Shown here: one piece after another, positions 19,239-30,888 of the stretch
How positions within the stretch are numbered: the stretch's first letter is position 1
How the letters are laid out: each line of letters opens with the position of its first letter
The notes under the pieces: generated by a model
What the model was told of the DNA's origin: nothing
The model's database searches: none
The model's input: the letters and a program-made list of their open reading frames with translations, nothing else
Made by a program: the position numbers and the translations under genes
DNA from: Escherichia phage mEp234
Reading direction: 5' to 3' (one strand)
Sequence record: NC_019715.1
Length of the DNA: 39,578 nt

Positions 19239-20507
19239 ATGCTTTATAACACTGGAACCATCGCCATTAACGGAAACAGCGCCACCGGCACGGGCACGAA
19301 CTGGACGGCAACCGCCAGCCAGGTTCGCGCTGGCCAGACGATTATCGTGATGTCTAACCCGGTGCAGCTGTTCCAGATTTCATCCGTGAACAGCGCCACG
19401 TCAATGACGGTTACGCCAGCTGCATCACCGGCGCTGAGCGGCCAGAAGTACGGCATTCTGGTATCAGACAATATCTCGGTTGATGGGCTGGCGCTGGCCA
19501 TGTCGCAGCTTATCAAGGAGTATGACGAGAATATTGGTGCGTGGGAGACGTTCGCCACAACCTCAGCCAACCAGAACATTACCGTTACGATCAATGGCAC
19601 CAGTTTATCAATCCCGGCTCTTGGGAAATTACTGCAGAAGGGGAGCAACGGAGCTTTGCCGGTTAATCAAGGTGGTACCGGCGCAACGAATGCCGCAGAC
19701 GCTCGCACAAACCTTGGTCTGGGAAGTGCGGCGACAAAAAACACAGGAGCGTCCTTCGGCGATGTAATGACAGTGGGGGCTTTTGGGCTGGGAAGCGTTG
19801 CGGACGGGTACTACTACGGTGCGCCAACGGGGTTTTACGGCAGCCCTCCGGATAACCCAAGCAGTGGCATTGGGGTAGCAACAATAAAGAGCGTTGTGGG
19901 TGGATATTCAACAGATTTATCCATGACCCTTGCATCCACAGCCCGCCTTTTTCTGAGAAATATCGGACCTGGTGGCGGCGGTCTATGGGCAGAATTTTAC
20001 AGCAACAGAAATACTACAACAGCTGCAGACGGAACCCTGAAAGTGGCATCCCCCATTGTTAAAATACTTCACGATGGTCGGCATGAAAACAATGATGAAT
20101 CTTATGGCTGCACAGTTACCAGGCTCGGGGTTGGTGAATATCTCATTGAAGGATGTACGGGGCTCAATTCTGATGCAGCCTGGGGTGGTATCGATGGCGG
20201 CTTTGACATCCCCAAAGATCGAAACAGGCAACCACTGATATGGCTGGACTATGAGATCAACGCTGACGGTTCGGTGCTGGTAAAAACCTATCATCGTACC
20301 CATCCTGACGCTCCAGTTTTTGCACGTAACGAGCGGGACGGATACGCCAGTGGTGACCCGATTGATATTCCTGCCGACCAGTTCGTGTCAGTACGTGTAG
20401 AGATGCCACGCGACAGTATCTGGCACCAGAAACAGAAGGAGATGCGGGAAGTGATGGAGGACGCTGAGCGTGGGCGCCAGCAAAATCAGCAGAATACCCA
20501 GTCGTAA
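19239..20507 (+). CDS. side tail fibre protein
   Basis: 422 aa from ATG 19239 (SD GGAG); N-terminus MLYNTGTIAINGNSATGTGTNW and PVNQGGTGATNAADARTNLGL are typical tail-fibre motifs. Track ORF 19194 starts inside the terminator. Confidence 0.75.
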   Translation: MLYNTGTIAINGNSATGTGTNWTATASQVRAGQTIIVMSNPVQLFQISSVNSATSMTVTPAASPALSGQKYGILVSDNISVDGLALAMSQLIKEYDENIGAWETFATTSANQNITVTINGTSLSIPALGKLLQKGSNGALPVNQGGTGATNAADARTNLGLGSAATKNTGASFGDVMTVGAFGLGSVADGYYYGAPTGFYGSPPDNPSSGIGVATIKSVVGGYSTDLSMTLASTARLFLRNIGPGGGGLWAEFYSNRNTTTAADGTLKVASPIVKILHDGRHENNDESYGCTVTRLGVGEYLIEGCTGLNSDAAWGGIDGGFDIPKDRNRQPLIWLDYEINADGSVLVKTYHRTHPDAPVFARNERDGYASGDPIDIPADQFVSVRVEMPRDSIWHQKQKEMREVMEDAERGRQQNQQNTQS

Positions 20508-21020
20508 AAATTATAACTGCCGCAACCATGCCGTATGCAAGAGCATGATTGCGGCCGACTAGCGAACGTTCGATAGTGCGAGTATTGAATGATTTCAAGC
20601 CGTTACCGATTTTACTATGTTTTCAGTAGAACGCTTAGACAAAACTGAGGCGCACAAAGCTTTGCACTGGATTGCAAGACTTTGTTCTATTCGATAGTTT
20701 AAGGTCGCTCACTCTACCTTTTCATCAAGCCAGTCCGCCCACCACAGCATCATTTCTCTGCGCTTAATGTAGCGGATGCCTCACTATCACATAGTGATGG
20801 TTCATTACTGCTTTGTAGAATGGATAGAGAACTGAGGATAAAAAGATATCCCAAAACCCCAAAATCTCATCTTTAGGATTTGCAGAAAGGGAGGCGTGAA
20901 CAGATACCTGCGCATGAAGACGGAACTAGTCCAGATGTGATATTTGTGGTGATCACATACATCATCAACGATGCTCGTTATGGTGAGTTTGATGACTACC
21001 CGCTGAAGTGAAAATAGTGT

Positions 21021-21316
21021 TGTGTACCAAATTGCGTACCAAACTAAAATCACAAATCATGAAACCCTTGTTCATGGCGGTTCTCAGGGGTATTGCGCGT
21101 AATCGTGAAAGAGGAAGGTAGGTTGTTTATCTGTGTCTGTCATTGTCTAGCATTGTCCACTGTAGTTAATTAACTGTCTGTTATAACTCGAAAAACAACC
21201 ATTTTTTCACCTGAGTATGTCTACTAACGTCAAATATAGTTGTTTACTGTGCGCTGTTGTCCATGTGATATTGTGTACCAGATGTGTACCAAACCATTAT
21301 TTCTGAGCGTACCAAA
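21021..21316. other. candidate attP region with integrase arm-type direct repeats
   Basis: Five same-orientation copies of GTACCA(A/G)A at 21024-21031, 21036-21043, 21275-21282, 21286-21293 and 21309-21316, flanking a ~230-bp AT-rich interval immediately upstream of int. Confidence 0.45.
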
Positions 21317-21324
21317 TATTATTT

Positions 21325-22503
21325 ATGGCTATAAGCGACACAAAACTGCGTACTATTTATGGTAAACCATATTCGGGCCCACAAGAAGTGGCTGATGCCG
21401 ATGGCCTCAGCGTACGAATTTCACCGAAGGGGGTCATCCAGTTCCAGTACCGCTATCGCTGGCATGGCAAGCCTAATCGACTTGGGCTTGGTCGATACCC
21501 ATCCCTGTCTTTGAAGGATGCCAGACAGATCACTGCTGACTTGCGAAAGCTCTATTTCTCAGGAACGGATCCACGCACTTATTTTGAAGAGAAGGTGGAG
21601 AACTCCATGACGGTCGCCCAGTGTCTCGACTACTGGTTCGACAATTACGTCTCTACAACTCTCAGAGAAAAGACCCAGGCACTTTACCGATCAACGGTTA
21701 TGAAGCGCATGCATGACGCCTTCCCTAATCGACCGGCATCTTCTATCACGGTTAAGCAATGGGTTGACCTGCTTACCGAAGAAGAAAAAGATAATCCACG
21801 CCGAGCAAGGCAGGTGCTAAGTCAACTAAGATCAGCAATTAGTTGGTGCATGCGGCGTCAGTTGATAGATAGTTGCGCAATTATGAGCATCCAGCCAAGG
21901 GACTTCGGCTCCCGCGCTGAGGTAGGGGATCGGGTACTGTCGTATCACGAACTGGCTAAGATTTGGCTTGCTATTGAAAGAAGCCGTGCGTCTACGTCAA
22001 ATAAGCTCCTTCATCAGATGCTTATGCTGTGGGGGGCGAGGCTCTCAGAGCTTAGGCTGGCAACAAAGACAGAATTTGACCTGCTGGACAACGTATGGAC
22101 CGTACCGAAAGAGCATAGCAAGATGGGTAATGTTATCCGCCGTCCAATCTTCGAACAAATTAAGCCTTTTCTCGAAAAGGCCATGACAACGTACAATGAT
22201 GTTCTTTTCCCTGGAGAAGACATAAACAAACCGATCAGCATCGCTGCAGCCAACCGATTCGTAAACAGAATAAGGGGAGGGATGGATCTAGGTTACTGGC
22301 GAACACATGATTTCAGAAGAACGCTTGTTACACGTCTGTCCGAGATGAATGTCGAGCCTCATGTTACTGAGCGAATGCTCGGTCATGAACTTGGCGGGAT
22401 AATGTCCGTATACAATAAACACGACTGGATAGAGGCTCAGCGCAAAGCGTATGAGCTTCACGCTGATAAATTGTTCTGGCACATCAGGAGCATTTCTGAT
22501 TAA
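21325..22503 (+). CDS. int: tyrosine integrase (P4-like, N-terminal DUF4102 arm-binding domain)
   Basis: 392 aa; N-terminal LSVRISPKGVIQFQYRYRWHGK; catalytic-region motifs (HDFRRT, MLGHE, SVYNKHDW). Confidence 0.9.
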   Translation: MAISDTKLRTIYGKPYSGPQEVADADGLSVRISPKGVIQFQYRYRWHGKPNRLGLGRYPSLSLKDARQITADLRKLYFSGTDPRTYFEEKVENSMTVAQCLDYWFDNYVSTTLREKTQALYRSTVMKRMHDAFPNRPASSITVKQWVDLLTEEEKDNPRRARQVLSQLRSAISWCMRRQLIDSCAIMSIQPRDFGSRAEVGDRVLSYHELAKIWLAIERSRASTSNKLLHQMLMLWGARLSELRLATKTEFDLLDNVWTVPKEHSKMGNVIRRPIFEQIKPFLEKAMTTYNDVLFPGEDINKPISIAAANRFVNRIRGGMDLGYWRTHDFRRTLVTRLSEMNVEPHVTERMLGHELGGIMSVYNKHDWIEAQRKAYELHADKLFWHIRSISD

Positions 22504-22675
22504 CGCCACCGTTAAGAATCCACCCTTCAACAGCTTCACGAAGGTATGATTTGGGGTGGGTTCTGACTGGCTTCGGAAATCCGTGCCGTTTGGTATAGTT
22601 CCAGATTGTCTGACGTGATGAAACACCGAGCTTGTTCATCACTTCTTTCTCAGGAATCAGGCTGGTATCGGTCAT
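22484..22675 (-). CDS. AlpA/Xis-family DNA-binding protein (putative excisionase)
   Basis: 63 aa; SD GGAG; winged-HTH signature KEVMNKLGVSSRQTIWNYTKRHGFPKPV; convergent with int and overlapping its 3' end by 20 nt. Confidence 0.65.
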   Translation of the reverse strand: MTDTSLIPEKEVMNKLGVSSRQTIWNYTKRHGFPKPVRTHPKSYLREAVEGWILNGGVNQKCS

Positions 22676-24001: not shown

Positions 24002-24172
24002 TCAGAATGGACACGGCCCAAGGAAATAACGCTGATTTAATACTTCAGTCTTTGCCGCATTTAAAAATACGCGAACACCTTCACGATCTCCCTTCTGGCG
24101 ATACATTAACGCCTGCTGCGTGTACATGCGTCTCTGTAACTTGCTCTCCTTCACTGTGGTTGCAAGTGACAT
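24002..24172 (-). CDS. small protein (arf-position, unknown)
   Basis: 56 aa (MSLATTVKESKLQRRMYTQQ...), SD GGAGATATTC before the ATG; ends 10 nt before the erf start. Below the track's 60-aa cutoff; translated by hand. Confidence 0.35.
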   Translation of the reverse strand: MSLATTVKESKLQRRMYTQQALMYRQKGDREGVRVFLNAAKTEVLNQRYFLGPCPF

Positions 24173-24247
24173 GAATATCTCCTTCGTTACCGATTAATTC
24201 TTTCATCTGACGAATGAATTCTTCGTCTGACCAGTTATCTGTAAAAC

Positions 24248-24400
24248 TCATTTCCTGCGATACAACGGAAGGTTGATAGCTGATTTCATCGCTTTATTTG
24301 CTTCAAACCACATTTTGGAATCACCAATAAATCTGGCTATTACTGCTTTGTTTTGTGCAGCACGAAGCATCTGATGATTTATGGCTATTTCATTGCGCAT
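24248..24400 (-). CDS. kil: Kil-like small protein (candidate host division inhibitor)
   Basis: 50 aa; IARFIGDSKMWFEA resembles the FIGD core recalled for lambda/P22 Kil; SD GAGGTC; overlaps cIII end. Confidence 0.4.
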   Translation of the reverse strand: MRNEIAINHQMLRAAQNKAVIARFIGDSKMWFEANKAMKSAINLPLYRRK

Positions 24401-29849: not shown

Positions 29850-30011
29850 ATGACAAAACGTCGTAAGAAATACCAGGAAAAAGAAGAGATTCGACACCCT
29901 GATTCACCTGAGGGATTAGTGGTAGCCGCAGCAAATAACAGGGCGTTCGCAGAGCGCCTTGTTGGTGTTTACAGACTAGCCAAAGCAGGAGTGAAGCATG
30001 GGCGTCGTTAA
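29850..30011 (+). CDS. small basic protein ORF between cII and the replication gene
   Basis: 53 aa (MTKRRKKYQEKEEIRHPDSPEG...), SD GGAG 6 nt upstream; overlaps the start of the next gene by 14 nt; translated by hand. Confidence 0.3.
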   Translation: MTKRRKKYQEKEEIRHPDSPEGLVVAAANNRAFAERLVGVYRLAKAGVKHGRR

Positions 30012-30888
30012 GTTAGCTGATTACAGGCATAACCCTGTACAACATCAGGAGGCATCCAGTATGGGGTATGTCTCTATACACCGCCAGTTTATGGACAGCA
30101 GGCTCTATAAGGACTCTCAGGCAGTACATCTTTGGCTTCACTTAATCCTCAAGGCTAATCACGAATCTACTGTCGTCAATACGGATATCGGTCCGATAAC
30201 TGTTGATCGCGGTCAGATGATAACTGGACGCCCGTCGCTGGTCAGAGAAACATTCATCCCCGACAACAAAGTTCGGAGCTTATTACGGACTTTTGAGTCG
30301 AAAGGGATGCTTAATATTTGCTCGATGGGGAAGAAATTTAGCCTGTTTACAATCGTTAAATATGACGATTTTCAGGCAAAAAATTGTCCAACGGTTGTCC
30401 AACGGTTGTCCAACGCAAACACCAGTAATGGCGCGGATCTCAGCGGAGATTGTCCAACGGTTGTCCAACGGTTGTCCATAAACAATAATATAAATAATAT
30501 CTCTAATACTGACGTATTAGAGAGTGCCACAGCAGACAAAAAGTCTGACAAGAAAAAACCTTCCGTTAGCTGTCAGGATGTTGTCGATGCTTACCACGAA
30601 ATCCTTCCTGAAGCGCCAAGAATCCGCGCACTGAATGACAAGCGTAAAAACCAGATCCGAACGTTCTGGCGCAAAGCCGGAGTGATAACCCGTCAGCTTG
30701 ACGGGCATGGGTTCACGATGCAGGACTGGAGAAATTATTTGAGCTACGTAGGCGAAAATTGCCGATGGATGTTCGAAGAGCGCCCAAACCATCAACGCGG
30801 AACCGTCTGGCACAAAAAGGGATTTGATTTCCTGCTTAACGATAATACCTACCTGAAAGTTCGTGAGGGTGAACACGATGACCGATAA
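29998..30888 (+). CDS. replication initiator (O-type) containing ori iterons
   Basis: 296 aa, SD GGAG; the coding sequence carries six 11-bp iterons, giving the repeated peptide CPTVVQRLS; precedes the helicase gene. Confidence 0.7.
   Translation: MGVVKLADYRHNPVQHQEASSMGYVSIHRQFMDSRLYKDSQAVHLWLHLILKANHESTVVNTDIGPITVDRGQMITGRPSLVRETFIPDNKVRSLLRTFESKGMLNICSMGKKFSLFTIVKYDDFQAKNCPTVVQRLSNANTSNGADLSGDCPTVVQRLSINNNINNISNTDVLESATADKKSDKKKPSVSCQDVVDAYHEILPEAPRIRALNDKRKNQIRTFWRKAGVITRQLDGHGFTMQDWRNYLSYVGENCRWMFEERPNHQRGTVWHKKGFDFLLNDNTYLKVREGEHDDR
30384..30480 (+). repeat. origin iterons (6 x TTGTCCAACGG in two clusters)
   Basis: Direct repeats at 30384-30394, 30395-30405, 30406-30416 and 30450-30460, 30461-30471, 30472-30480, with a 33-bp spacer. 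Confidence 0.8.

What the first reader, a model, noticed from the sequence alone, without database searches (positions are those of the whole stretch)
20508..21324. 0.8-kb non-coding interval with five GTACCA(A/G)A arm-type repeats: candidate attP without a tRNA remnant
Two repeats at 21024-21043 and three at 21275-21316, the last ending 8 nt before the int ATG, look like arm-type integrase sites flanking a core within roughly 21044-21272. I could not find a tRNA 3'-end-like sequence, though P4-family integrases usually target tRNA or tmRNA genes. The upstream half (20508-21020) also has a long imperfect hairpin (20519-20555) and no convincing ORF.
Basis: partly seen in the sequence, partly recalled or inferred. 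Interest (0 to 1): 0.45.

Follow-up and report, generated by a model that had tools for sequence, protein, structure and literature searches.

The report
Known sbcB-targeting phage attachment site
The interval holds the attachment site (attP) of a lambdoid coliphage that integrates into the 5' end of the host exonuclease I gene sbcB rather than into a tRNA gene; the core was already published, so this is an ordinary, well-confirmed case.

Summary
The window is phage mEp234. Five direct 11-nt repeats TGYGTACCARA lie at 21021-21043 (two copies) and 21272-21316 (three copies). They flank a 13-bp core, CGTAATCGTGAAA, at 21098-21110.

The core was located from attL and attR junctions of prophages whose int region is about 99% identical in DNA, and from the empty K-12 site. 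This is the published "type 2851" attP, shared with Stx2c phages 2851 and 1717, Sf101 and HK544.

There is no tRNA remnant because the target is codons 13-17 (F-H-D-Y-E) of sbcB. The int-side arm carries a substitute sbcB start on the minus strand (ATG at 21143, MTDTDKQPTFL...). Lysogens therefore keep a full-length sbcB reading frame.

Across 79 relatives of the integrase (41-99% identity), three direct repeats sit at the same place just upstream of int. Their sequence changes by lineage: GTACCA, GTACA or GTCCA. In three diverged intact attP sites the left arm uses the same word as the right arm. This supports arm-type integrase sites, but binding has not been tested.

The upstream half (20508-21020) is non-coding debris. 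It contains a conserved hairpin, the last 18 codons of an IntS-type integrase gene, and a truncated umuD-like pseudogene.

Verdict: already known, low interest.

The parts
20519..20555 (-). Conserved GC-rich hairpin at the 5' end of a ~100-nt non-coding element (20519-20620) found downstream of tail-fibre genes in many lambdoid phages. Probably an intrinsic terminator for leftward transcription. Not part of attP.
   Evidence: Fold z-score is -4.7 on the - strand and -3.3 on the + strand. Five pairs show compensatory changes in six phages. A U-rich tail follows the stem on the - strand in five of the six sequences (read). Homologues are listed.
20709..20765 (-). Fossil of the last 18 codons plus the stop codon of an IntS-type integrase gene (Sf6/HK620/HK633 type).
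   Evidence: tblastn of HK620 IntS residues 368-385 gives 94% identity at 20712-20765 on the minus strand. DNA alignment with HK620 and HK633. Annotations.
20757..21011 (+). 5'-truncated umuD-like (S24 peptidase) pseudogene with an in-frame stop codon.
   Evidence: HK140 UmuD-like protein residues 45-129 match at 55% identity, E 9e-26. The translation shows an internal stop. The 3' end matches umuD genes of several phages. The mEp234 record annotates only the last 43 codons.
21021..21043 (+). Left-arm pair of arm-type repeats: TGTGTACCAAA and TGCGTACCAAA, with starts 12 nt apart. The pair ends 54 bp before the core.
   Evidence: The equivalent pair in SEN34, L122 and L134 uses each lineage's own word, GTACA.
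21098..21110 (.). attP core, CGTAATCGTGAAA. This is the 13-bp identity with attB in sbcB, and strand exchange must occur inside it.
   Evidence: Duplications at both ends of prophage 1717. HK544 annotation 'attP (type 2851)'. Four-way attP/attB/attL/attR alignment. The ends of the mEp234 prophage record fall here. Published for 2851 and Sf101 (PMC4159516).
21111..21143 (-). Phage-borne substitute 5' end of sbcB. The ATG is at 21143-21141, followed by codons M-T-D-T-D-K-Q-P-T-F-L. After integration this reads through the core into host sbcB.
   Evidence: Translations. A lysogen's sbcB is annotated as an intact 474-codon gene starting here. This stretch matches native sbcB at 26 of 30 positions. 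Equivalent start codons are present in 32 related loci.
21123..21263 (+). Five of the six same-strand copies of TTGTYYA that lie between 21068 and 21263. In relatives, the copies nearest int are replaced by GTTCA/GTCCA/GTACA words about 11 bp apart. Candidate binding sites for the AlpA-like excisionase or another accessory protein. Low confidence.
   Evidence: Six + strand matches within 196 bp, where about 0.05 would be expected from the window-wide rate (the pattern was chosen after looking at the data). Phased words in relatives are visible.
21243..21272 (+). Candidate weak int promoter: TTTACT, 18-nt spacer, TG-n-GATATT. This would place the three right-arm repeats at or just downstream of the transcription start.
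   Evidence: Read from the sequence. The block CATGnGATATTG is conserved in relatives. The consensus scan did not call it, because it scores 8 of 12. Inference only.
21272..21316 (+). Right-arm trio of arm-type repeats: TGTGTACCAGA, TGTGTACCAAA and AGCGTACCAAA, with starts 11 and 23 nt apart. The last copy ends 8 nt before the int ATG.
   Evidence: The same three-repeat layout is seen in nearly all of 79 integrase relatives, with lineage-specific words.
21325..22503 (+). Tyrosine integrase (392 aa) with an N-terminal arm-DNA-binding domain.
   Evidence: Pfam Arm-DNA-bind_3 (E 8e-18) and Phage_integrase (E 1e-16). PHROG 1 integrase. Matches lambda Int structures and CP4-like integrase N-terminal domains in the PDB. 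The int region is 99-100% identical in DNA to 2851, 1717 and mEp234.
22484..22675 (-). AlpA-family small HTH protein (63 aa). Probable excisionase (recombination directionality factor).
   Evidence: PHROG 66 'excisionase and transcriptional regulator', E 1.9e-8. Pfam Phage_AlpA scores below its cut-off. Annotated as AlpA family in HK544 and Sf101.

Best explanation
Window 21021-21316 is the attP of lambdoid phage mEp234. It belongs to the already described 'type 2851' class.

The adjacent gene, int (21325-22503), encodes a two-domain tyrosine integrase. By inference, its N-terminal arm-binding domain contacts the five direct repeats TGYGTACCARA. Two repeats lie 55-77 bp left of the core and three lie 162-206 bp right of it. 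The core-binding and catalytic domains act on the 13-bp core CGTAATCGTGAAA (21098-21110). This is the arrangement of a lambda-type intasome.

Recombination with the identical 13 bp in the host gene sbcB (nucleotides 37-49, codons F13-H14-D15-Y16-E17) inserts the phage. The junction comparison shows this directly.

Insertion cuts off the native start of sbcB. The phage arm next to int carries a replacement start codon and eleven codons on the opposite strand. The lysogen therefore still has a full-length sbcB reading frame. The frame is shown; its expression is inferred.

The three right-arm repeats lie between a weak promoter candidate and the int start codon. Int probably represses its own synthesis in the prophage, as shown experimentally for IntS of KplE1 and reported for P4 Int. 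For this phage that is inferred by analogy.

The small AlpA-like protein encoded just beyond int is the probable excisionase.

The upstream half of the interval (20508-21020) is not part of attP. It is leftover sequence from earlier module exchanges.
For: - Core position: prophage 1717 has the 13-bp duplication at both ends. Its attL and attR sequences align with the window and with the empty K-12 sbcB site as a clean reciprocal exchange.
- Many prophage records start at window 21098. HK544 is annotated 'attP type 2851' at the same 13 bp.
- The mEp234 prophage record in MG1655 begins and ends at the core.
- 586 of 5426 complete E. coli genomes carry these junction sequences.
- sbcB repair: translations; an intact 474-codon sbcB is annotated in a lysogen.
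- 32 related loci, from Escherichia to Vibrio and Aeromonas, have int 204-222 nt from the sbcB HDYETFG codons. All but one, which is cut by its contig end, have a full-length sbcB frame starting in element DNA.
- Repeats: they are enriched and form one five-copy family. Int has an arm-binding domain.
- 74 of 79 relatives have at least three copies of a 5-mer in the last 110 nt before int, against 29 of 72 control windows. The layout is the same in nearly all.
- The repeat word changes with lineage, and in SEN34, L122 and L134 the left-arm pair uses the same word as the right-arm trio.
- Autoregulation precedent: PMC2951348.
Against: - No binding data exist for the repeats, so their assignment to Int rather than to another protein is comparative only.
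- No IHF consensus site stands out in the arms.
- No promoter passed the consensus scan on either strand. Both the int promoter and whatever drives the rebuilt sbcB are unidentified.
- The position of strand exchange within the 13 bp is unknown.
- The repeat word does not track overall integrase identity cleanly. GTACCA and GTACA lineages are interleaved at 66-75% identity, so the two words may be variants of one recognition sequence rather than separate specificities.
Confidence: 0.85

Rival explanations
1. The GTACCARA repeats are operators for a different DNA-binding protein, such as the AlpA-like excisionase or a transcription regulator of int. They would not be integrase arm-type sites.
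For: The right-hand trio sits directly in front of int, where a regulator would bind. No binding data exist. AlpA-type proteins also bind direct repeats (general knowledge).
Against: The repeats occur on both sides of the core, two plus three copies. The same word appears in both arms in four diverged attP sites. That is expected for sites that bridge arms to a core, not for a promoter operator. The integrase has a dedicated arm-binding domain. A second, phased repeat family nearer the core is a better candidate for the excisionase.
Confidence: 0.1
2. The interval is an attP that targets a tRNA or tmRNA gene, as many integrases with this N-terminal domain do, and the tRNA-like core was simply missed.
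For: The upstream half holds a remnant of an IntS-type integrase gene, and relatives of that integrase use argW.
Against: ARAGORN finds no tRNA in the window. Rfam finds nothing in 20300-21500. Junctions in hundreds of genomes lie in sbcB. The IntS remnant is only 18 codons long and lacks its own attP, which in HK620 lies beyond the 5' end of int.
Confidence: 0.01
3. The repeats are a chance cluster, or a relic of local duplication, with no function.
For: None beyond their short length.
Against: No shuffle out of 100 reaches the observed count. The position, number and spacing are conserved in relatives down to 41% integrase identity, while the surrounding sequence is not.
Confidence: 0.01

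Closest known systems
attP 'type 2851' of Stx2c phages 2851 and 1717, Shigella phage Sf101, HK544 and HK140
   Same: Identical 13-bp core CGTAATCGTGAAA. The int region is 97-100% identical in DNA. All five repeats are present at the same places (two carry a single-base change in some records), and attB is the same site in the 5' end of sbcB.
   Different: Nothing in attP itself. The DNA to the left differs by mosaic exchange: oacB in Sf101, an intact umuD-like gene in HK140, and fossils here.
Bacteriophage lambda attP (P1, P2 / core / P'1-P'3)
   Same: A tyrosine integrase with a separate arm-binding domain, detectably related to lambda Int. Two arm-type repeats lie on one side of the core and three on the other. 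A small excisionase gene sits next to int.
   Different: Here int is transcribed away from attP, so its 5' end abuts the long arm. The repeat sequence is unrelated. The target lies inside a coding sequence. No IHF consensus sites were found.
KplE1 (CPS-53) IntS/TorI and satellite phage P4 Int/Vis recombination modules
   Same: int is transcribed away from the attachment site. The int promoter region therefore overlaps arm-type sites in attL. In those systems this gives negative autoregulation by Int (PMC2951348).
   Different: Those elements integrate into tRNA genes. Autoregulation has not been tested for this integrase.
Phage 21 and e14 integration into icd (gene-end replacement)
   Same: The element inserts inside a protein-coding gene and carries a substitute gene end, so the reading frame stays intact (from my own knowledge of that literature).
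   Different: There the 3' end is replaced. Here the 5' end is replaced, including the start codon and, necessarily, the promoter.

Membership tests
Type 2851 (sbcB-targeting) attP | 13-bp core CGTAATCGTGAAA upstream of int | tested here: met
   Exact match at 21098-21110.
Type 2851 (sbcB-targeting) attP | Integrase nearly identical to that of phage 2851 | tested here: met
   99.0% DNA identity to 2851 across int and its upstream arm, and 100% to mEp234.
Type 2851 (sbcB-targeting) attP | Prophage junctions attL and attR in the 5' end of sbcB | tested here: met
   Junctions of prophage 1717 aligned with the empty K-12 site. A lysogen with int next to sbcB. For mEp234 itself, only the ends of the prophage record coincide with the core.
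Lambda-type (heterobivalent) tyrosine integrase attP | Integrase with an arm-binding N-terminal domain plus a catalytic tyrosine-recombinase domain | tested here: met
   Pfam PF13356 and PF00589, both above their cut-offs. PDB matches to lambda Int.
Lambda-type (heterobivalent) tyrosine integrase attP | Repeats on both arms, different in sequence from the core | tested here: met
   Two plus three copies of TGYGTACCARA. The same layout occurs in diverged attP sites.
Lambda-type (heterobivalent) tyrosine integrase attP | Integrase physically binds the arm repeats | not testable with these tools
   Needs a gel-shift or footprinting experiment.
Lambda-type (heterobivalent) tyrosine integrase attP | Host bending-protein (IHF) sites in the arms | tested here: inconclusive
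   The consensus scan gives only one one-mismatch hit, overlapping a repeat. The window-wide count equals chance.
Lambda-type (heterobivalent) tyrosine integrase attP | Adjacent excisionase gene | tested here: met
   63-aa AlpA-like HTH protein at 22484-22675. PHROG 66 E 1.9e-8. The Pfam score is below its cut-off.
tRNA/tmRNA-targeting attP of P4-like integrases | attP carries the 3' part of a tRNA or tmRNA gene | tested here: not met
   No tRNA or tmRNA. No Rfam match. The core lies in sbcB codons 13-17.

The most novel reading that the evidence does not exclude
The integrase belongs to a wide gammaproteobacterial subfamily with three consistent traits, which may not have been described as a family property.

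1. The core-to-int distance is fixed at about 210 bp.
2. The arm-site word changes by lineage, and the same word is used in both arms.
3. Insertion is at the codons D-Y-E-T near the 5' end of a gene, and the element always supplies a new start. The target is sbcB in most lineages and a PfpI/DJ-1-type protease gene in a Klebsiella lineage that shares the core GTTTCGTAATC.

This would imply selection to keep the target gene working under phage-supplied expression signals.
Probability: 0.35. Interest if true: 0.35.

Novelty: already known. Interest (0 to 1): 0.2.

Why it matters
The site itself matters little as a discovery. sbcB is a standard Shiga-toxin prophage insertion locus, and this 13-bp core is in the literature and in GenBank annotations.

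The useful additions are practical:
- A full map of the attP: five arm repeats, the core, and a substitute sbcB start.
- An explanation of why there is no tRNA remnant.
- The point that 'occupied sbcB' does not mean 'broken sbcB', because the reading frame is rebuilt from phage DNA. That bears on how prophage occupancy of sbcB is interpreted in E. coli O157 typing.
- The family-wide conservation of the three repeats in front of int gives a ready set of natural variants for studying arm-site recognition.

Tried and rejected
- tRNA/tmRNA search of the whole window: none found.
- Rfam at a permissive threshold over 20300-21500: nothing.
- Consensus promoter scan of 20400-21500: no site on either strand. 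The one terminator-like hit, at 20667-20650, folds no better than shuffles.
- IHF consensus with one mismatch allowed: the count equals chance, with no convincing site in the arms.
- The 82-aa minus-strand ORF at 20805-21053 (annotated as hypothetical gp17 in Sf101) and the 43-aa ORF at 20880-21011: no Pfam or PHROG family. The first overlaps the umuD-like remnant on the opposite strand and I treat it as spurious.
- Homology between the phage arm and the native sbcB promoter region: only the 30 bp at the core match.
- The original phage 2851 paper (Strauch et al. 2008) is not held in the library. I relied on its citation in PMC4159516.
- Literature searches for a description of the arm sites, or of sbcB repair by the phage, found none. 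The library is incomplete, so this is weak evidence of absence.
- Exact 6-mer counting understated the repeat conservation, because the words vary at one position. 5-mers with controls were used instead.

Full report
**Identity of the window.** The region around the finding is 100% identical to both ends of the mEp234 prophage record PV340539. It is 97-99% identical to HK544, HK140, Sf101, E212 and many Shiga-toxin prophages. The window is therefore the lambdoid coliphage mEp234 or a near-identical phage.

**The observation.** GTACCARA occurs 8 times in the window against 1.22 expected, and no shuffle out of 100 reaches 8. Five copies lie at 21024, 21036, 21275, 21286 and 21309, all on the + strand. 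The repeat finder groups them into one family of 11-nt units, TGYGTACCARA. The last unit ends 8 nt before the ATG of the 392-codon ORF at 21325-22503.

That ORF has an Arm-DNA-bind_3 domain and a Phage_integrase domain, both above Pfam's cut-offs. It also matches lambda Int structures and CP4-like integrase N-terminal domains. No tRNA or tmRNA gene is present in the window, and Rfam finds nothing in 20300-21500.

**Where the core is.**
- Many prophage records begin to match at query position 799 of my first search, which is window 21098.
- Stx2c prophage 1717 is annotated with a 13-bp 'duplication due to insertion' at both ends.
- I read both junctions and aligned them with the window and with the empty site in E. 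coli K-12. The left of attR equals the phage and the right of attR equals the host. The left of attL equals the host and the right of attL equals the phage.
- The only block common to all four sequences is CGTAATCGTGAAA, at window 21098-21110.
- HK544 carries the GenBank feature 'attP; prophage attachment site (type 2851)' on the same 13 bp.
- The host flank of attL is sbcB in 5423 of 5426 complete E. coli genomes. 586 genomes carry the phage-side junction sequences, mostly as two places.

**Why there is no tRNA remnant.**
- In K-12, the 13 bp are nucleotides 37-49 of sbcB, that is codons F13-H14-D15-Y16 and the first base of E17. From my own knowledge, D15 and E17 are catalytic residues of exonuclease I, which would explain why this DNA is conserved enough to serve as a target.
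- To the right of the core, the phage resembles the native sbcB start at 26 of 30 positions. This explains why attR matches in E. coli genomes run on to window 21127.
- On the minus strand the phage has an ATG at 21143 followed by T-D-T-D-K-Q-P-T-F-L-F-H-D-Y. In the free phage this frame stops after 19 codons.
- In a lysogen the frame runs into sbcB. It gives MTDTDKQPTFLFHDYETFG..., compared with the native MMNDGKQQSTFLFHDYETFG....
- RefSeq annotates that gene as an intact 474-codon sbcB, not as a pseudogene.

The phage therefore replaces the 5' end of its target gene. Whether the rebuilt gene is expressed is not shown. No promoter passed the consensus scan on either strand, and beyond the 30 bp at the core the phage arm does not resemble the native sbcB upstream region.

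**Are the repeats arm-type sites?** Binding cannot be tested here, so I compared relatives.
- Salmonella phage SEN34 has an integrase 60% identical and the same core. Its repeats read GTACA(n)AA. There are two to the left of the core and three or more to the right, the last just before int.
- A scan of one genome per species gave 79 usable loci at 41-99% identity.
- Nearly all show three direct repeats in the last ~60 nt before int, with the same spacing. The word differs by lineage: GTACCA, GTACA, or GTGTCC/GCGTCC in Vibrionaceae.
- 74 of 79 loci have at least three copies of a 5-mer in the last 110 nt. The controls give 29 of 72 windows taken further upstream and 96 of 395 shuffles.
- In viral contigs with an intact attP (L122 at 73% identity, L134 at 62%, and L166, which is SEN34), the left-arm pair uses the same word as the right-arm trio.

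Conserved number, position and spacing, a sequence that changes in both arms together, and an integrase with a dedicated arm-binding domain together make the arm-site reading the best one. A rival reading, that the repeats bind the AlpA-like protein or another regulator, is not excluded.

**Other elements in the int-side arm.**
- A second set of same-strand words, TTGTYYA, is enriched between 21068 and 21263. In relatives it is replaced by GTTCA/GTCCA/GTACA words about 11 bp apart.
- These words are candidates for the excisionase encoded at 22484-22675 (PHROG 66). The pattern was chosen after looking at the data, so this is a lead only.
- A weak promoter candidate (TTTACT, 18 nt, TG-n-GATATT, at 21243-21272) would put the three right-arm repeats at the start of the int transcript.
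- In KplE1, where int is also transcribed away from the attachment site, Int represses its own promoter through such sites (PMC2951348). That paper reports the same for P4. I infer the same arrangement here.

**How widespread the sbcB habit is.** In 32 of the 79 genome loci, int lies 204-222 nt from the sbcB codons for (F/I)(H/F)DYETFG and is divergently oriented. The loci run from Escherichia, Pantoea, Serratia and Xenorhabdus to Vibrio and Aeromonas. In each, except one cut by its contig end, a full-length sbcB frame begins at an ATG, GTG or TTG in element DNA 10-14 codons upstream of those conserved codons.

A Klebsiella lineage with about 61% integrase identity shares the core GTTTCGTAATC. 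It sits at the codons E-D-Y-E-T near the start of a gene annotated 'intracellular protease'.

**The upstream half (20508-21020).**
- 20519-20620 is a ~100-nt element conserved downstream of tail-fibre genes in HK633, HK97, phi80, phiP27, Stx phages and, in a different context, lambda.
- Its hairpin at 20519-20555 folds better than shuffles and has five pairs with compensatory changes in six phages. On the minus strand a U-rich tract follows the stem in five of the six. It is probably a terminator for leftward transcription.
- 20709-20765 on the minus strand is the last 18 codons plus the stop codon of an IntS-type integrase gene (94% identity).
- 20757-21011 on the plus strand is a umuD-like gene lacking its first ~44 codons and carrying an internal stop.
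- The 82-codon minus-strand ORF annotated in Sf101 has no family match and overlaps that remnant.

These are scars of the module exchange typical of lambdoid phages. They are not part of attP.

**Verdict.** The finding is correct and now fully explained. The attP type, its core and its host target were already published and annotated. The arm repeats and the substitute sbcB start were not mentioned in the papers I could search. They are, however, ordinary features of known kinds. Interest is low.

Noticed in passing
window 20519-20620: A ~100-nt non-coding element conserved in many lambdoid phages downstream of tail-fibre genes. In HK97 it lies next to sib, and in lambda it lies at 24161-24265 in the b region. 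Its hairpin has five compensatory pairs and a conserved loop, CGTATGCAAGA. It has no Rfam family. HK633's GenBank record labels it 'attP', which looks wrong. It could be a terminator or the 3' end of a small RNA on the minus strand.
   Followed up: partly
L134 (intact attP) and L138, L141, L155, L010 (attL), about 230 nt upstream of int: Klebsiella-type relatives of the integrase (about 61% identity) share the core GTTTCGTAATC. They are inserted at codons E-D-Y-E-T near the start of a gene annotated 'intracellular protease', not at sbcB's H-D-Y-E-T. The same short DNA word is reused in a different gene.
   Followed up: partly
L014-L090 (32 loci), 204-222 nt upstream of int: Integration at the 5' end of sbcB, with an element-supplied start codon, is conserved from Enterobacterales to Vibrio and Aeromonas. 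The distance from int to the sbcB HDYETFG codons is almost constant.
   Followed up: partly
window 30384-30478: Two sets of three 11-bp-spaced copies of GGTTGTCCAAC, followed by an AT-rich stretch, inside the 296-codon ORF at 29998-30888. This looks like the iterons of a lambdoid replication origin within the initiator gene. The heptamer TTGTCCA also occurs twice in the attP arm, probably by coincidence.
   Followed up: no
E. coli O157:H7 MB9-1, NZ_CP040107.1 2015057-2015355 (hit H26): Three complete E. coli genomes contain an uninterrupted attP-like sequence covering both arms and the core in one piece, in addition to junctions. This would be expected for tandem prophages at sbcB.
   Followed up: no
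window 20709-21011: The IntS-type integrase remnant (minus strand) and the umuD-like pseudogene (plus strand) abut or overlap by a few bases at about 20757-20765. This marks a mosaic joint that Stx2 prophages also carry at about 92% identity.
   Followed up: partly
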